In this document: in pieces, positions 964-5,787 of the stretch
Layout of the letters: every line of letters begins with the position of its first letter
How positions within the stretch are numbered: the stretch's first letter is position 1
Virus genome (UHGV): UHGV-1707683
Direction: 5' to 3' (one strand)
Length of the DNA stretch: 10,507 nucleotides
DNA from: a virus
Made by a program: the position numbers and the translations under genes
The notes under the pieces: generated by a model
Told to the model about the DNA's origin: nothing
Database searches by the model: none
The model's input: the letters and a program-made list of their open reading frames with translations, nothing else

Positions 964-983
964 TCGCTTTGTCAGCGACGTAG
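964..983 (-). promoter_or_regulatory. nutR-like site: boxB-type RNA hairpin (minus-strand RNA CUACG-UCGCU-GACAA-AGCGA) between cro and cII
   Basis: Plus strand 964..978 is TCGCT TTGTC AGCGA; on the cro/cII transcript this is a 5-bp stem with a 5-nt loop GACAA preceded by CTACG. It is almost identical to the hairpin upstream of N (4519..4538). The location matches lambda nutR. Confidence 0.55.
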
Positions 984-1016
984 GACGAATGTCCATTGTG
1001 AAAATAGCGGTGTTAC

Positions 1017-1250: not shown

Positions 1251-1363
1251 TAGTGCCTCCGTTTATCACACAGAACAACTTTACCATTTTGATAAATCAT
1301 CCGCAATGTAAATTTATCATATTGCGTATTTATCCATTTGCTAAATAGAGGGAAAATTGTGAG
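1251..1363. promoter_or_regulatory. Right operator/promoter region (OR with divergent PR and PRM) between cro and cI
   Basis: 113-bp AT-rich divergent intergenic region containing repeated 17-bp dyads of the form TTTATC-N5-GATAAA: 1262..1278 (TTTATC acaca GAACAA), 1280..1296 (TTTACC atttt GATAAA), half-site 1313..1318, 1329..1345 (TTTATC cattt GCTAAA). The same motif recurs at OL (4412..4453). Confidence 0.6.
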
Positions 1364-2537: not shown

Positions 2538-2999
2538 ATGAGAATACTAGGTGTTAGAGCGGCGCCCAAAGTTACATCTTTTGTTGTATATTGCACTAAT
2601 GAGTCTGCACTCAAATGTGTTGATGTTATTAAAATACCTTCGACCTTAGACACACCAGAAAAATTAAAGTATGTGAGAAATAACATCCTCGACATTCTTA
2701 ATTTATATAATGTTGAATTAGCTGCCATACGCGTTACTGAATCAAACTCTGATAATCTTAGCATTGACCGCCTTTATATAGAAGCTGTTATTCAAGAAGC
2801 ATTTTCAAGCAGTGATGTAAGAAAATATTACACTATTAGAAAATCTGGCATGAAATCATCATTGAACCTAACAGAGATCGAGTATAAAGAAATATTGAAG
2901 TCACACCGCAATATAAATGGAATCGATAATTCTGGTTTTACAACTGAAACAAATGAAGCTGTTTTGGCTGCTCTATCTGCGGAGGTAAGGGGATGCTAA
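2538..2999 (+). CDS. Hypothetical protein (153 aa), AT-rich, translationally coupled to the downstream kinase
   Basis: ATG at 2538 with AGGAT upstream; the stop TAA 2997..2999 overlaps the kinase start ATG 2993..2995 (7-nt overlap). Asn/Ser/Lys/Ile-rich; no motif recognised. Confidence 0.55.
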   Translation: MRILGVRAAPKVTSFVVYCTNESALKCVDVIKIPSTLDTPEKLKYVRNNILDILNLYNVELAAIRVTESNSDNLSIDRLYIEAVIQEAFSSSDVRKYYTIRKSGMKSSLNLTEIEYKEILKSHRNINGIDNSGFTTETNEAVLAALSAEVRGC

Positions 3000-4039
3000 C
3001 TCCATACAAAAGAGCTGATGTAGAATTCGAATGGATTAGTGATCTAGAAGAACAGGGTTGTTTTTCAAAAGTATATCTGGCTCATGACAGACACCTAGCT
3101 CATGACTTGGTGATTAAAGAAATAGAAAAAAAAGAAAACACTAACCACGACGACTACTTTAATGAAGCAAGGCTTCTCTATAAACATGCACATCCAAATA
3201 TTGTGCAAGTTCAGTATGCTGCTCAATGTGAGAGCAATATCTATATAGCCATGCCATTTTATCATAATGGTTCGCTAAACCAATTAATGAAAAAAAATAA
3301 TCTTACAAGCAGGGAGATAATACGGTATTCCATTCAATTTTTAAGTGGACTTTATCATATACACTCAAAAGGTCTTATGCATTTTGATATAAAACCTAAT
3401 AACATTATGATATCAAACAGAAATGAGGCCATGCTATCTGACTTTGGATTATCTCAGTTAGTCAATGAGGAATCGAGAGCTGCGCCTGAGTTTGGATATC
3501 ATTTTCATGTGCCACCGGAATATTTTTCTTTATCAACAAATGATTATAATTTCACATATGACATATATCAGGCAGGATTAACCATATATAGAATGTGTGT
3601 TGGACATGATAATTTTGAAAGAGAAAGATCTGCATTTAGCACGATTGAACAACTCAGAGAGTCGATAATTAATGGCTGCTATCCATTAAAAGAGTATCCT
3701 CCCCATATACATAAAAAATTAATAACAATAGTGAACAAATGCATTCATGTAGATCCAAATGAAAGATATCAATCCGTACTAGATGTACTAAACGATCTCT
3801 CAGCTATAAGTGATGGCGTTCTTGACTGGCGTCTACAGATGACGAAACCAACTAACGGCACATGCGAATGGCAAAAAAAGTCTGGGGACGCTATACTGTC
3901 TATAGTTTTTGACGCAGAAAATTCGTCTACTACTGGTTTTCGTTTATACGATGATGGGCGGAAAAGGCGTGCTACGAACTTAACAATATCCTCAGGATGT
4001 ACCCCTACAAAACTGTATAGGTTATTAAAGGATAACTGA
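2993..4039 (+). CDS. Eukaryotic-like (Hanks-type) protein kinase, 348 aa, non-RD type with C-terminal extension
   Basis: GGAGG at 2981..2985 then ATG 2993. Kinase subdomain motifs read from the translation: beta-3 Lys in LVIKEI (about K42), alpha-C Glu in YFNEARLL, catalytic loop HFDIKPNNIM (D132, nt about 3380..3409), DFG in LSDFGLS (nt about 3440..3448), APE-like PPEY, subdomain IX DIYQAGLTIY. Glycine loop is degenerate (EQGCFSKVY). About 85 residues follow the catalytic core. Position and family are reminiscent of Stk of phage 933W (from memory, unverified). Confidence 0.85.
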   Translation: MLTPYKRADVEFEWISDLEEQGCFSKVYLAHDRHLAHDLVIKEIEKKENTNHDDYFNEARLLYKHAHPNIVQVQYAAQCESNIYIAMPFYHNGSLNQLMKKNNLTSREIIRYSIQFLSGLYHIHSKGLMHFDIKPNNIMISNRNEAMLSDFGLSQLVNEESRAAPEFGYHFHVPPEYFSLSTNDYNFTYDIYQAGLTIYRMCVGHDNFERERSAFSTIEQLRESIINGCYPLKEYPPHIHKKLITIVNKCIHVDPNERYQSVLDVLNDLSAISDGVLDWRLQMTKPTNGTCEWQKKSGDAILSIVFDAENSSTTGFRLYDDGRKRRATNLTISSGCTPTKLYRLLKDN

Positions 4040-4041
4040 TC

Positions 4042-4206
4042 ATGAAAAAGCGCGAGGAAGTAAGCAAGCTGCCTCGCAGACGTGATGCAGCATTAGCGGT
4101 TCCCTACAAAAAAGATGAGTTCATAAGCCCTTCTGATGACAAAAAATTTTCAAAGGCGAAAAGTTTTACATCTACATCTCTAAAAGATAAATACTTTAAA
4201 ATCTAG
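4042..4206 (+). CDS. Hypothetical small Lys-rich protein (54 aa) between kinase and terminator
   Basis: ATG 4042 two nt after the kinase stop; translation MKKREEVSKLPRRRDAALAVPYKKDEFISPSDDKKFSKAKSFTSTSLKDKYFKI; TAG stop at 4204..4206 abuts the terminator stem. Weak SD (AAGGA about 10 nt upstream). Not in the supplied track (under its length cut-off). Confidence 0.35.
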   Translation: MKKREEVSKLPRRRDAALAVPYKKDEFISPSDDKKFSKAKSFTSTSLKDKYFKI

Positions 4207-4230
4207 CCCGGCCTCAGCGCCGGGTTTTCT
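4206..4230 (+). terminator. Rho-independent terminator ending the cI-kinase (lysogenic) operon
   Basis: Stem CCCGGC (4207..4212) / GCCGGG (4219..4224), 6-nt loop, followed by TTTTCTTT (4225 onward). Confidence 0.7.
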
Positions 4231-4404
4231 TTGCCTCACGATCCCCCACCTAAAAAAACATAACTCATTGTATTTGTTGAAAAATAAATAGATACAACTT
4301 GCTAAACAACGCAATCCAGATCTCCCTCAAATCTCTTTATTTATCCTGTCGAATTCCTACAACAAAATAAAACACCATAAGAATCAATACGATATTTGAA
4401 AACG

Positions 4405-4460
4405 AAGAGAATTTATCATTTTGCTATTGCCATTAATTTATCATTCCGATAAAGTTCACC
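4405..4460. promoter_or_regulatory. Left operator/promoter region (OL/PL)
   Basis: Perfect 17-bp dyad TTTATC attcc GATAAA at 4437..4453 and a related site with TTTATC at 4412..4417, 25 bp apart. The motif is the same as in OR. A possible promoter lies on it: -35 TTGCCA 4427..4432 and -10 TAAAGT 4450..4455 (17-bp spacer). Lies upstream of nutL and N. Confidence 0.55.
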
Positions 4461-4518
4461 CATCAGCAGGACGCATTACTCACCAGGGCGGTGAATATAC
4501 AACGATTCGAATATGAAT

Positions 4519-4538
4519 CTACGGCGCTGACAAAGCGC
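4519..4538 (+). promoter_or_regulatory. nutL-like site: boxB-type RNA hairpin CUACG-GCGCU-GACAA-AGCGC upstream of N
   Basis: 5-bp stem GCGCT (4524..4528) / AGCGC (4534..4538), 5-nt loop GACAA, preceded by CTACG. It is near-identical to the minus-strand hairpin at 964..983, with a compensatory change in the outer base pair (G-C versus U-A). Geometry resembles lambda boxB (5-bp stem, GAAAA loop). Confidence 0.6.
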
Positions 4539-4703
4539 AATAACCAAAGTGAACTTTGGGGTGTGGTGAATGGTTCATGGACGGGAATATGTCGCACGTA
4601 AAGCGGCGAGGCCTGTGGGACTATTGCCGAATTGAAGTAGGCCGAAACAGGTCGAAATGGGTCTCCCACCTACCACACCACCAAAGTTCATCAGGAGGTC
4701 TAT

Positions 4704-5087
4704 ATGACACGCAGAACTCAGTTCAAAGGCAATTCACGTTCTCGTCGTCGTGAGCGTTTAAAGGCAAAGGCATTAGCTAACTGCGTACTGGCCCGCGAAG
4801 AAGCAATAAGTTCAGAAGTATTACACCGCCCTACTCTAAGCAGAGCGCAGATTCAGGCTAAAGGTACTCACGAAACGCCTGAGCGCATAGAAGACGCTAA
4901 GCCAATTAAGTTCATGGCACAGGACGTGATCTGGCAACAGAAAGAATACAGACGCAATCTGGAGCGAGCAGCCATTGTGTACGCGAATGAGTTTGGACAT
5001 AAGCAACCAGAAACTGGTGTATGTCTTCCAAACGTAGCCATTTACGCGGCAGGCTACCGGAAATCAAAACAACTGACGGCGAGGTGA
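4704..5087 (+). CDS. N: N-type transcription antitermination protein
   Basis: 127 aa; AGGAGG at 4693..4698 then ATG 4704. N-terminal arginine-rich motif (RRTQFKGNSRSRRRERLKAKALA) typical of lambdoid N proteins; first gene after OL/PL and the nut hairpin. The sequence looks to me like the N of Stx phages 933W/H-19B (recollection, unverified). Confidence 0.8.
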   Translation: MTRRTQFKGNSRSRRRERLKAKALANCVLAREEAISSEVLHRPTLSRAQIQAKGTHETPERIEDAKPIKFMAQDVIWQQKEYRRNLERAAIVYANEFGHKQPETGVCLPNVAIYAAGYRKSKQLTAR

Positions 5088-5148: not shown

Positions 5149-5772
5149 ATGTCATCAATCCGCTTAACTACGAGAATGAAAGAGGAAATCGCTCGTAACG
5201 CTTTAATTAAGTCTGGGGTTTTCACTGAACTTGAAGAAGTAACAAAGTTAAAGAACCAGCTTGCACTTGACGCCAGAGTTATTGCGTTTGGCGGGAAAAA
5301 GAAAACCGAAGAAGTGGACCAGCTGGCATCAAAGTTAATGGCTGCAAGTGAGGAACTTCAAAAGCTGGGATGTTCATTTTACTCATGCGATGTCAGTTCA
5401 TGTTCGATTTATCTGACTGTATCTGGAAGAAGGGTTGGCTGGCATTCATACGGAAAAGACGGCAACGGTGAAGATATATTGCTCCCTACCCCCGACAAAG
5501 ATAAATGCATGTTTGACGCAGAACACAAAATAACAAAAAGGTTTGATGAAATCTGCGCATTGCAACAAAAACTTGAAGCCAGGAAAAAGGATATAGAATC
5601 AAACGTATGGGCTGCTTTGAACTCAGTCACAACAGTTAAGCGACTTATTGAAGTTTGGCCTGAAAGCAAAGAGTTGCTACCAAAAGAAGCAGATAAAGCA
5701 AGTGCAGCACTTCCTGCTTTACGGGTAGAAGATTTGAATAAGATGATTGGACTTCCTTCCGAGGCCGCATAA
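5149..5772 (+). CDS. Hypothetical protein (207 aa from ATG 5149; alternative TTG start at 5089)
   Basis: ATG 5149 preceded by GAGAGG; the track's longer ORF needs a TTG start one nt after the N stop. Predicted helical/coiled-coil-like segments; no catalytic motif recognised. Confidence 0.55.
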   Translation: MSSIRLTTRMKEEIARNALIKSGVFTELEEVTKLKNQLALDARVIAFGGKKKTEEVDQLASKLMAASEELQKLGCSFYSCDVSSCSIYLTVSGRRVGWHSYGKDGNGEDILLPTPDKDKCMFDAEHKITKRFDEICALQQKLEARKKDIESNVWAALNSVTTVKRLIEVWPESKELLPKEADKASAALPALRVEDLNKMIGLPSEAA

Positions 5773-5787
5773 TCGGCCTTTATTTTT
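5762..5787 (+). terminator. Rho-independent terminator (tL1-like) with the stop codon of the preceding gene in its loop
   Basis: Stem AGGCCG (5762..5767) / CGGCCT (5774..5779), loop CATAAT containing TAA 5770..5772, then TTTATTTTT. Confidence 0.65.

What the first reader, a model, noticed from the sequence alone, without database searches (positions are those of the whole stretch)
4519..4538. Matched nutL/nutR boxB-like hairpins with a compensatory stem change
Upstream of N (plus strand 4519..4538) the RNA would read CUACG GCGCU GACAA AGCGC. On the opposite transcript between cro and cII (964..983, minus strand) it reads CUACG UCGCU GACAA AGCGA. The loops and flanks are identical and the outermost stem pair differs by a compensatory G-C to U-A change, a hallmark of a selected RNA structure. 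Both are placed as lambda nutL and nutR are, which fits N-dependent antitermination with a GACAA loop rather than lambda's GAAAA/GAAGA. No clear boxA (CGCTCTTA-like) was seen.
Basis: partly seen in the sequence, partly recalled or inferred. Interest (0 to 1): 0.5.

Follow-up and report, generated by a model that had tools for sequence, protein, structure and literature searches.

The report
Known H-19B-type nutL/nutR boxB hairpins

Summary
CTACGGCGCTGACAAAGCGC lies at 4519-4538 (+) and CTACGTCGCTGACAAAGCGA at 983-964 (-). The shared 19-nt core occurs only at these two places, against 0 expected by chance. Each folds as a 5-bp stem with a GACAA loop.

The window is the immunity region of an H-19B/933W/HK97-type Stx phage.
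- **nutR:** the stretch from boxA to boxB is identical to H-19B nutR, a site used in published N antitermination and footprinting experiments.
- **nutL:** window 4472-4538 is identical to a stretch annotated "nutL" in GenBank GQ499363. Its boxB equals the P22 boxB 15-mer of PDB 1A4T.
- **N protein:** the gene at 4704-5087 has a P22-like arginine-rich motif.

Across 334 related loci, 11 distinct boxB sequences keep 53 of 55 stem cells paired, with four pair types at the outermost position. Loop type (GACAA or GAAA) tracks the N arginine-rich-motif class without exception.

- The terminator at 4205-4226 lies upstream of pL, so it is not a nutL target.
- nutR has a degenerate boxA (CGCUAUUUU). 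nutL has none.

Verdict: interpretation supported, already known, low interest.

The parts
4427..4455 (+). pL-like promoter (TTGCCA-17-TAAAGT). The inferred transcript start is near 4462 (ATCAGCAGG).
   Evidence: The ATCAGCAGGACGC start is shared with the P22-type and Sakai-type loci. Its likeness to the lambda pL transcript start is from my own knowledge.
4472..4538 (+). nutL as annotated in a 933W-like phage: upstream hairpin, spacer hairpin, UACG linker and boxB.
   Evidence: Identical to GQ499363 misc_feature 'nutL' (L002 3192-3258). The fold shows three hairpins.
4504..4519 (+). nutL spacer hairpin GAUUC-GAAUAU-GAAUC.
   Evidence: Fold. Relatives keep a hairpin here with other sequences, such as GUCGA-CUC-UCGAC in Sakai-type phages.
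4524..4538 (+). nutL boxB GCGCU-GACAA-AGCGC.
   Evidence: Identical to the P22 boxB 15-mer of PDB 1A4T (PMC11480772) and to nutL boxB in P22-type loci.
4704..5087 (+). [quoted passage not shown]
   Evidence: PF25694 at E=2.3e-15. 97% identical to H-19B N. F7, G9, R14, R15 and R18 are invariant in the alignment with P22 gp24.
5761..5790 (+). Terminator-like hairpin with a T run downstream of N; a plausible tL1-type target of N-modified polymerase (inferred).
   Evidence: Further terminator-like sites lie at 5907-5924 and 5945-5964.
1316..1344 (-). pR-like promoter (TTAGCA-17-TATGAT) upstream of cro (1250-1017).
1001..1009 (-). Degenerate boxA of nutR, CGCUAUUUU.
   Evidence: Two mismatches from CGCTCTTTA, which is not significant alone (30 such matches against 31 expected). 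It sits where sibling phages have CGCTCTTTT or CGCTCTTTG. The H-19B nutR is described in terms of boxA, spacer and boxB in PMC3526286.
983..994 (-). nutR spacer hairpin GGAC-AUUC-GUCC.
   Evidence: Fold. It covaries in relatives (GGGC/GCCC, GGCC/GGCC). PMC3526286 reports two hairpins in H-19B nutR.
964..978 (-). nutR boxB UCGCU-GACAA-AGCGA.
   Evidence: Identical to H-19B. In H-19B the boxB loop G is protected by N plus NusA/NusG (PMC3526286).
879..963 (-). nutR-to-cII spacer holding the tR1 region, with hairpin UAUGCGU-UUCC-ACGCAUA at 934-917. Identifying this stretch as the Rho-dependent terminator overlapping nutR is an inference from the H-19B literature.
   Evidence: Sequence. H-19B nutR/tR1 is described in PMC3526286. 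A 'putative tR' is annotated at the same place in phage g341c.

Best explanation
The two hairpins are the boxB elements of the nutL and nutR sites of an H-19B/933W/HK97-type lambdoid Stx phage. After repressor loss, transcription from pL (rightward in the window) and pR (leftward) produces RNAs that carry a spacer hairpin, a UACG linker and a 5-bp boxB stem closed by a GACAA pentaloop. N is translated from the pL transcript just downstream of nutL. Its arginine-rich N-terminus binds the boxB loop. That loop is expected to fold like a GNRA tetraloop with the C flipped out, as in the P22 N-boxB complex. N then joins NusA (and NusG) on the elongating polymerase. The modified polymerase reads through the Rho-dependent tR1 region next to nutR and the terminator-like hairpins downstream of N. 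Shown here: the sequences, the folds, the positions, identity to characterised sites, and covariation. Shown by others for the identical H-19B nutR: N and NusA binding, and antitermination. Inferred for this window: the exact transcript starts, which terminators are overridden, and the three-dimensional loop fold.
For: The sites are exact, unique and on the transcribed strands, and both fold as stable stem-loops. N is encoded 166 nt downstream of nutL boxB. nutR is identical to H-19B nutR from boxA to boxB. That site supports N-dependent antitermination, and its spacer and boxB are protected by N plus NusA/NusG (PMC3526286 and PMC4499122). nutL is identical to an annotated nutL, and its boxB equals the P22 boxB solved with the N peptide (PMC11480772 and PMC12550061). 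In 334 loci with N homologues, nutL and nutR boxB travel with N across immunity regions of different length; the nutL-to-nutR distance ranges from about 1.3 to 3.6 kb. Eleven distinct boxB sequences keep 53 of 55 stem cells paired, against a shuffle mean of 38 and 0 of 20000 shuffles reaching 53. When the inner GCU/AGC was fixed and the outer two pairs left free, 7 of 7 combinations in nut context were paired, against 3 of 16 elsewhere (Fisher p=5e-4). G.U variants (UCGCU-GACAA-GGCGA and GUGCU-GACAA-AGCGC) fit an RNA helix but not a DNA palindrome. Loop type tracks the N arginine-rich-motif class without exception.
Against: No experiment exists on this exact window. nutL lacks any boxA within 2 mismatches, and the nutR boxA is degenerate, which departs from the lambda paradigm. 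The title of Neely and Friedman 2000 (reduced requirement for host factors) suggests this is characteristic of H-19B. The detail that boxA, NusB and S10 are dispensable is my recollection of the abstract; the paper could not be read here. The z-scores of the isolated 20-mers are modest (about -2.2), and the 91-nt nutR context is not unusually stable (z=-0.04).
Confidence: 0.95

Rival explanations
1. The two copies are DNA-level inverted repeats, binding sites for a dimeric DNA-binding protein such as an operator, and not RNA structures.
For: Both are perfect 5+5 inverted repeats in the immunity region, near the operators.
Against: Each reads GACAA in the direction of local transcription, so they lie on opposite DNA strands, and both are downstream of the promoters rather than overlapping them. 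Relatives keep the stem through changes on both sides and through G.U pairs, which would be mismatches in DNA. The annotated OL and OR operators in the 933W-like record are different sequences located elsewhere. RNase footprinting of the identical H-19B nutR RNA shows protein protection at the RNA level.
Confidence: 0.01
2. The hairpins are terminator, attenuator or RNA-processing hairpins unrelated to N. Their similarity would reflect a duplicated or recombined segment, with a neutral double change in the outer pair.
For: The flanks CUACG are identical, and lambdoid phages are highly mosaic. With only two copies, a single compensatory pair is weak statistics on its own.
Against: Neither hairpin is followed by a T run, and neither was called terminator-like. 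Similarity between the two sites stops outside CUACG plus boxB. Stem covariation across four N classes and strict co-variation of the loop with the N arginine-rich motif are not expected for a neutral duplicate. The identical H-19B site is bound by N and NusA.
Confidence: 0.02
3. The sites are real nut sites, but only nutR is functional. nutL, which lacks boxA, would be a decayed relic.
For: nutL has no boxA within 2 mismatches: at the position where Sakai-type phages have GGCTCTTTA it has GGTGAATAT. The published H-19B biochemistry that could be read here uses nutR only.
Against: The nutL boxB is invariant in 112 of 121 H-19B-type loci and identical to the P22 nutL boxB. The nutL spacer hairpin is conserved, with loop variation only. 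The title of Neely and Friedman 2000 reports a reduced host-factor requirement for H-19B.
Confidence: 0.03

Closest known systems
nutL and nutR of Stx1 phage H-19B (Neely and Friedman 1998 and 2000; used by the Sen laboratory, PMC3526286 and PMC4499122), shared by 933W, HK97 and related phages
   Same: nutR is identical from boxA to boxB. The nutL boxB, spacer hairpin and linker are identical. N is 97% identical with the same arginine-rich motif. The gene order cII-cro-cI...N is the same.
   Different: In the readable nutL segment, the upstream part has one base change (CGCATTACT here, CGCACTACT in H-19B). The N leader between nutL and the N start is a different cassette, of the 933W type. A stk kinase operon lies between cI and pL, as in 933W.
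Phage P22 nutL boxB and the N (gp24) arginine-rich motif; NMR structure PDB 1A4T
   Same: The nutL boxB 15-mer GCGCUGACAAAGCGC is identical. The GACAA pentaloop is the same. The N motif is homologous (GNSRSRRRER here, GNAKTRRHER in P22), and the C-terminal LPxVAxYAAGxRKxxQxTAR tail is conserved.
   Different: P22 has a canonical boxA, CGCTCTTTA, close to boxB and no spacer hairpin or UACG linker. P22 nutR boxB is CCGC-C-GACAA-C-GCGG with a C.C closing position. The central part of N is unrelated.
Phage lambda nutL and nutR
   Same: The logic and placement are the same: nutL between pL and N, nutR between cro and cII next to tR1, a 5-bp boxB stem with a GNRA-like pentaloop, and an N protein with an arginine-rich motif. 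These features of lambda are established knowledge.
   Different: In lambda the loops are GAAGA and GAAAA with the fourth base flipped out, whereas P22-type GACAA has the third base flipped out (PMC12550061). Lambda needs boxA with NusB and S10. Here boxA is absent at nutL and degenerate at nutR.
nut sites of epsilon34/g341c-type and Sakai-type (VT2-Sa, Stx1 phage NC_004913) lambdoid phages
   Same: The architecture is the same: spacer hairpin, UACG linker, then a 5-bp boxB with inner GCU/AGC. The Sakai-type nutR flanks are nearly identical to the window's nutR.
   Different: Their boxB loop is a GAAA tetraloop, lacking the C. Their N motifs differ (GSAAGRRRERRAALQ and GTAASRRRARRANLQ). Sakai-type nutL keeps a good boxA, GGCTCTTTA.

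Membership tests
Lambdoid N-utilisation (nut) site | Lies on the transcribed strand early in the pL and pR operons: nutL between pL and N, nutR between cro and cII. | tested here: met
   ORFs and Pfam identify N, cII and the cI-type repressor. The cro at 1250-1017 had no Pfam hit; it is identified by the H-19B cro annotation covering the matching region. The promoter-like sites are at 4427-4455 (+) and 1344-1316 (-). boxB lies at 4524-4538 (+) and 978-964 (-).
Lambdoid N-utilisation (nut) site | boxB: a short stem-loop with a purine-rich, GNRA-like loop. | tested here: met
   Both fold as a 5-bp stem plus GACAA, at -7.1 and -5.8 kcal/mol.
Lambdoid N-utilisation (nut) site | [quoted passage not shown] | tested here: met
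   PF25694 at E=2.3e-15. The arginine-rich motif aligns with those of P22, epsilon34-type and Sakai-type N.
Lambdoid N-utilisation (nut) site | boxA (CGCUCUUUA-like) 5' of boxB. | tested here: inconclusive
   nutL has no match within 2 mismatches. nutR has CGCTATTTT with 2 mismatches, which is at chance level as a pattern (30 found, 31 expected) but lies where siblings have CGCTCTTTT or CGCTCTTTG. The H-19B system is reported to have a reduced host-factor requirement (title; details from my own recollection).
Lambdoid N-utilisation (nut) site | The stem is maintained by covariation among homologous sites. | tested here: met
   53 of 55 stem cells are paired in 11 distinct boxB sequences, with 4 pair types at position 1 and 4 at position 2; 0 of 20000 shuffles reach this. 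Unbiased outer-pair test: 7 of 7 against 3 of 16.
Lambdoid N-utilisation (nut) site | N-dependent readthrough of downstream terminators requires the site. | not testable with these tools
   Not testable for this window. It has been shown for the sequence-identical H-19B nutR in reporter and in vitro assays (PMC3526286 and PMC4499122).
P22-type boxB (GACAA pentaloop recognised by a P22-like N arginine-rich motif) | GACAA pentaloop on a 5-bp stem, with sequence identity to the solved P22 boxB. | tested here: met
   Window 4524-4538 is GCGCUGACAAAGCGC, the 15-mer of PDB 1A4T. P22-type loci carry the same nutL boxB.
P22-type boxB (GACAA pentaloop recognised by a P22-like N arginine-rich motif) | The N arginine-rich motif is homologous to the P22 N peptide (NAKTRRHERRRKLAIERDT). 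| tested here: met
   The alignment places GNSRSRRRERLKAKALA against GNAKTRRHERRRKLA, with F7, G9, R14, R15 and R18 invariant. The P22 peptide sequence is from PMC11480772.
P22-type boxB (GACAA pentaloop recognised by a P22-like N arginine-rich motif) | GNRA-like loop fold with the third base (C) flipped out and contacted by N. | not testable with these tools
   Known for P22 (PMC12550061). Here it is inferred from sequence identity. Natural relatives lacking the C (GAAA loops) fit the view that the C is the extra-helical base.

The most novel reading that the evidence does not exclude
The one-base loop difference (GACAA or GAAA) may be a natural specificity switch. It separates otherwise almost identical nutR sites and tracks the N arginine-rich-motif class without exception in the surveyed loci. 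If so, H-19B/933W-type and Sakai/epsilon34-type N proteins would not cross-activate each other's operons when different Stx prophages share a cell. The epsilon34 genome paper only predicted a 'novel BoxB specificity'; I found no test of it in the searchable literature. My evidence shows co-variation only, not orthogonality.
Probability: 0.25. Interest if true: 0.4.

Novelty: already known. Interest (0 to 1): 0.1.

Why it matters
N-dependent antitermination at these sites is needed for delayed-early gene expression, and so indirectly for Q and Shiga-toxin expression after prophage induction. The sites are therefore biologically important. However, they have been mapped, annotated and used as a biochemical model system for more than two decades, so this finding adds no new biology. 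What this check adds is modest:
- A survey-scale demonstration of stem covariation in boxB.
- The strict pairing of loop type with N arginine-rich-motif class.
- A correction of which terminators nutL-modified polymerase can reach.

Tried and rejected
- **MAFFT alignment of mixed boxB sequences:** tetraloop and pentaloop sequences were placed without a loop gap and the stems were misaligned. I counted pairs on a hand-registered table in Python instead.
- **PDB sequence search with N:** it gave only spurious RECQ5 hits, because the P22 N peptide chains are too short or divergent to be found.
- **The genome-contig scan:** it returned only 11 loci. Diversity came from four viral-contig scans and annotated phage records.
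- **Rfam:** there is no nut or boxB family; the only significant hit was the cIII thermoregulator.
- **Primary papers:** Neely and Friedman 2000 and Cheeran 2007 are not held, so the dispensability of boxA, NusB and S10 rests on the paper's title and my memory of its abstract.
- **A context filter for nut sites based on 'TACG' alone:** it picked up coding-region false positives. I replaced it with the test that fixes the inner stem and leaves the outer pairs free.
- **Rejected readings:** a DNA operator palindrome, an intrinsic terminator, and a neutral duplicated segment (see the rival explanations).
- **A boxA at CGCATTACT (4472-4480), the start of the annotated nutL:** it aligns with the conserved 5' end of pL transcripts (ATCAGCAGGACGC...) that P22-type and Sakai-type phages also have upstream of their true boxA. 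I do not regard it as a boxA.

Full report
**Observation.** The plus strand at 4519-4538 reads CTACGGCGCTGACAAAGCGC, and the minus strand at 983-964 reads CTACGTCGCTGACAAAGCGA, exactly as reported. The shared 19-nt core occurs only at these two places even when 2 mismatches are allowed, and none of 200 dinucleotide-preserving shuffles gave a match. Each 20-mer folds into a 5-bp stem with a GACAA loop, at -7.1 and -5.8 kcal/mol. They are the only 5-bp-stem GACAA hairpins in the window. The two differ only in the outermost pair, G-C versus U-A.

**Context.** The window is the immunity and early region of an H-19B/933W/HK97-type Stx phage.
- Reading leftward on the minus strand: cro (1250-1017, identified from the H-19B annotation) and cII (878-582, PF05269).
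- Reading rightward on the plus strand: a cI-type repressor (1364-2068), a stk-type kinase (2993-4039) and N (4704-5087, PF25694, E=2.3e-15).
- Promoter-like sites lie at 4427-4455 (+) and 1344-1316 (-).

One hairpin therefore lies in the pL leader upstream of N, and the other lies between cro and cII on the pR transcript.

**Identity with known sites.**
- The nutR region matches H-19B (AF034975) at 99.5% over 201 nt and is identical from the boxA-like element to boxB.
- Window 4472-4538 is identical to the feature annotated "nutL" in GenBank GQ499363, a 933W-like phage. H-19B nutL differs by one upstream base.
- The H-19B nutR/tR1 cassette is a standard substrate for N antitermination. PMC3526286 describes its boxA, spacer and boxB, notes two hairpins in the site, and shows that the spacer and the boxB loop G are protected by N plus NusA/NusG. 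PMC4499122 uses the same site.
- The nutL boxB equals the 15-mer GCGCUGACAAAGCGC solved in complex with the P22 N peptide, PDB 1A4T (PMC11480772). In that complex the C of GACAA is looped out of a GNRA-like fold (PMC12550061).
- The window's N has a P22-like arginine-rich motif and the conserved C-terminal tail.

**Anatomy.** Both sites share the plan spacer hairpin, UACG linker, boxB.
- nutL: GAUUC-GAAUAU-GAAUC (4504-4519), then UACG, then GCGCU-GACAA-AGCGC (4524-4538).
- nutR: GGAC-AUUC-GUCC (994-983), then UACG, then UCGCU-GACAA-AGCGA (978-964).

**boxA.** CGCTCTTTA has no match with 0 or 1 mismatch anywhere in the window. nutR carries CGCTATTTT (1009-1001), a 2-mismatch match that is at chance level as a pattern (30 found, 31 expected). 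It sits where sibling phages have CGCTCTTTT or CGCTCTTTG. At the position where Sakai-type phages have GGCTCTTTA, nutL has GGTGAATAT. This fits the reported reduced host-factor requirement of H-19B N (title of Neely and Friedman 2000). The details are from my memory, because the paper could not be read.

**Comparative test.** I collected 334 loci encoding four classes of N homologue.

| N class | nutL boxB | nutR boxB |
|---|---|---|
| H-19B type | GCGCU-GACAA-AGCGC | UCGCU-GACAA-AGCGA |
| P22 type | GCGCU-GACAA-AGCGC | CCGC-C-GACAA-C-GCGG |
| epsilon34/g341c type | CGGCU- or AGGCU-GAAA-... | UCGCU- or UAGCU-GAAA-... |
| Sakai type | UGGCU-GAAA-AGCCA | UCGCU-GAAA-AGCGA |

- The 11 distinct boxB sequences keep 53 of 55 stem cells paired. 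The outermost position shows G-C, U-A, C-G and A-U; the second shows C-G, G-C, A-U and U.G. No shuffle out of 20000 reached this.
- In a search that fixed only the inner GCU/AGC and left the outer two pairs free, 7 of 7 combinations in nut context were complementary, against 3 of 16 elsewhere (Fisher p=5e-4).
- Variants with G.U pairs argue for RNA pairing rather than DNA pairing.
- The spacer hairpin of nutR also covaries: GGAC/GUCC, GGGC/GCCC and GGCC/GGCC.
- The boxB pair stays with N across immunity cassettes of different size.
- Loop type never differs between nutL and nutR of one locus, and it tracks the N arginine-rich-motif class.

**Mechanism.** N made from the pL transcript binds the boxB loops on both nascent RNAs. 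With NusA and NusG it converts RNA polymerase to a termination-resistant form. On the right, this overrides the Rho-dependent tR1 region that overlaps and follows nutR (963-879, with a hairpin at 934-917). On the left, it overrides the terminator-like hairpins at 5761-5780, 5907-5924 and 5945-5964.

**Rivals.** The DNA operator palindrome, terminator or attenuator, neutral duplicate, and relic-nutL readings are each contradicted by strand orientation, absence of T runs, covariation including G.U pairs, conservation, and the published footprints.

**Verdict.** The elements are already known: the H-19B/933W-type nut sites with a P22-type boxB. Interest is low. The only mildly open point is whether the GACAA/GAAA loop difference, which tracks the N arginine-rich-motif class, makes the N systems of co-resident Stx prophages orthogonal.

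Noticed in passing
window 4550-4568 pairing with 4671-4690 (+): A long-range stem closes a roughly 140-nt structured domain of the N leader and ends 2 nt before the N Shine-Dalgarno sequence (AGGAGG, 4693-4698). Related loci carry at least five unrelated arm sequences that keep 8-9 of 9 pairs, and H-19B has a different internal cassette with the same stem. It resembles the lambda N-leader RNase III site (my own knowledge).
   Followed up: partly
window 5980-6038 (+): Rfam Lambda_thermo (the cIII thermoregulator element) matches at 88.5 bits, E=5e-21, at the start of the cIII-like ORF.
   Followed up: no
L083 (g341c) 4300-4500 and 2039-2052; L085 (Stx1 phage NC_004913) 4780-4935 and 2115-2270; loci L097-L254: Epsilon34/g341c-type and Sakai-type N proteins go with boxB hairpins that have a GAAA tetraloop at both nutL and nutR, whereas H-19B-type and P22-type N go with GACAA. 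No locus mixes loop types. The Sakai-type nutR is nearly identical to the window's nutR except for the loop C. The epsilon34 genome paper only predicted a novel boxB specificity (PMC2629481).
   Followed up: partly
L121, L124, L125, L130 (Salmonella Oslo-type phages), about 130-150 nt upstream of N: An N variant (motif ...GTSRARRRERLK...) has nutL GCUC-C-GUCAA-C-GAGC, with a C.C closing position, a GUCAA loop and a third stem pair changed to U-A. Its nutR is UCGCU-GACAA-GGCGA, with a U.G closing pair.
   Followed up: no
window 4205-4226, both strands: A GC-rich hairpin was called terminator-like on both strands. It lies after the small ORF that follows stk and upstream of pL, so it probably ends the cI-stk prophage operon.
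   Followed up: no
window 2993-4039 (+): A eukaryote-like Ser/Thr protein kinase (PF00069, E=2e-46; the stk of 933W-type phages) lies between the repressor gene and pL, in the position of lambda rexAB.
   Followed up: no
about 1.25 kb beyond nutR on the rightward transcript in at least 22 related loci (for example L004 3633, L009 3696); absent from the window: A further GACAA hairpin-like motif, UCCGC-GACAA-GUGGA, recurs at a fixed distance from nutR, probably inside a replication gene. Whether it is a chance coding-sequence feature or an extra N-binding site was not examined.
   Followed up: no
one Sakai-type relative among loci L175-L254 (rows GGATTGTCCCGCCGAAATGCGGGAACCA and CCTTATTCCCGCCGAAATGCGGGAATAC): One locus carries CCCGC-CGAAAU-GCGGG at both the nutL and the nutR position. 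It may be another matched boxB specificity.
   Followed up: no
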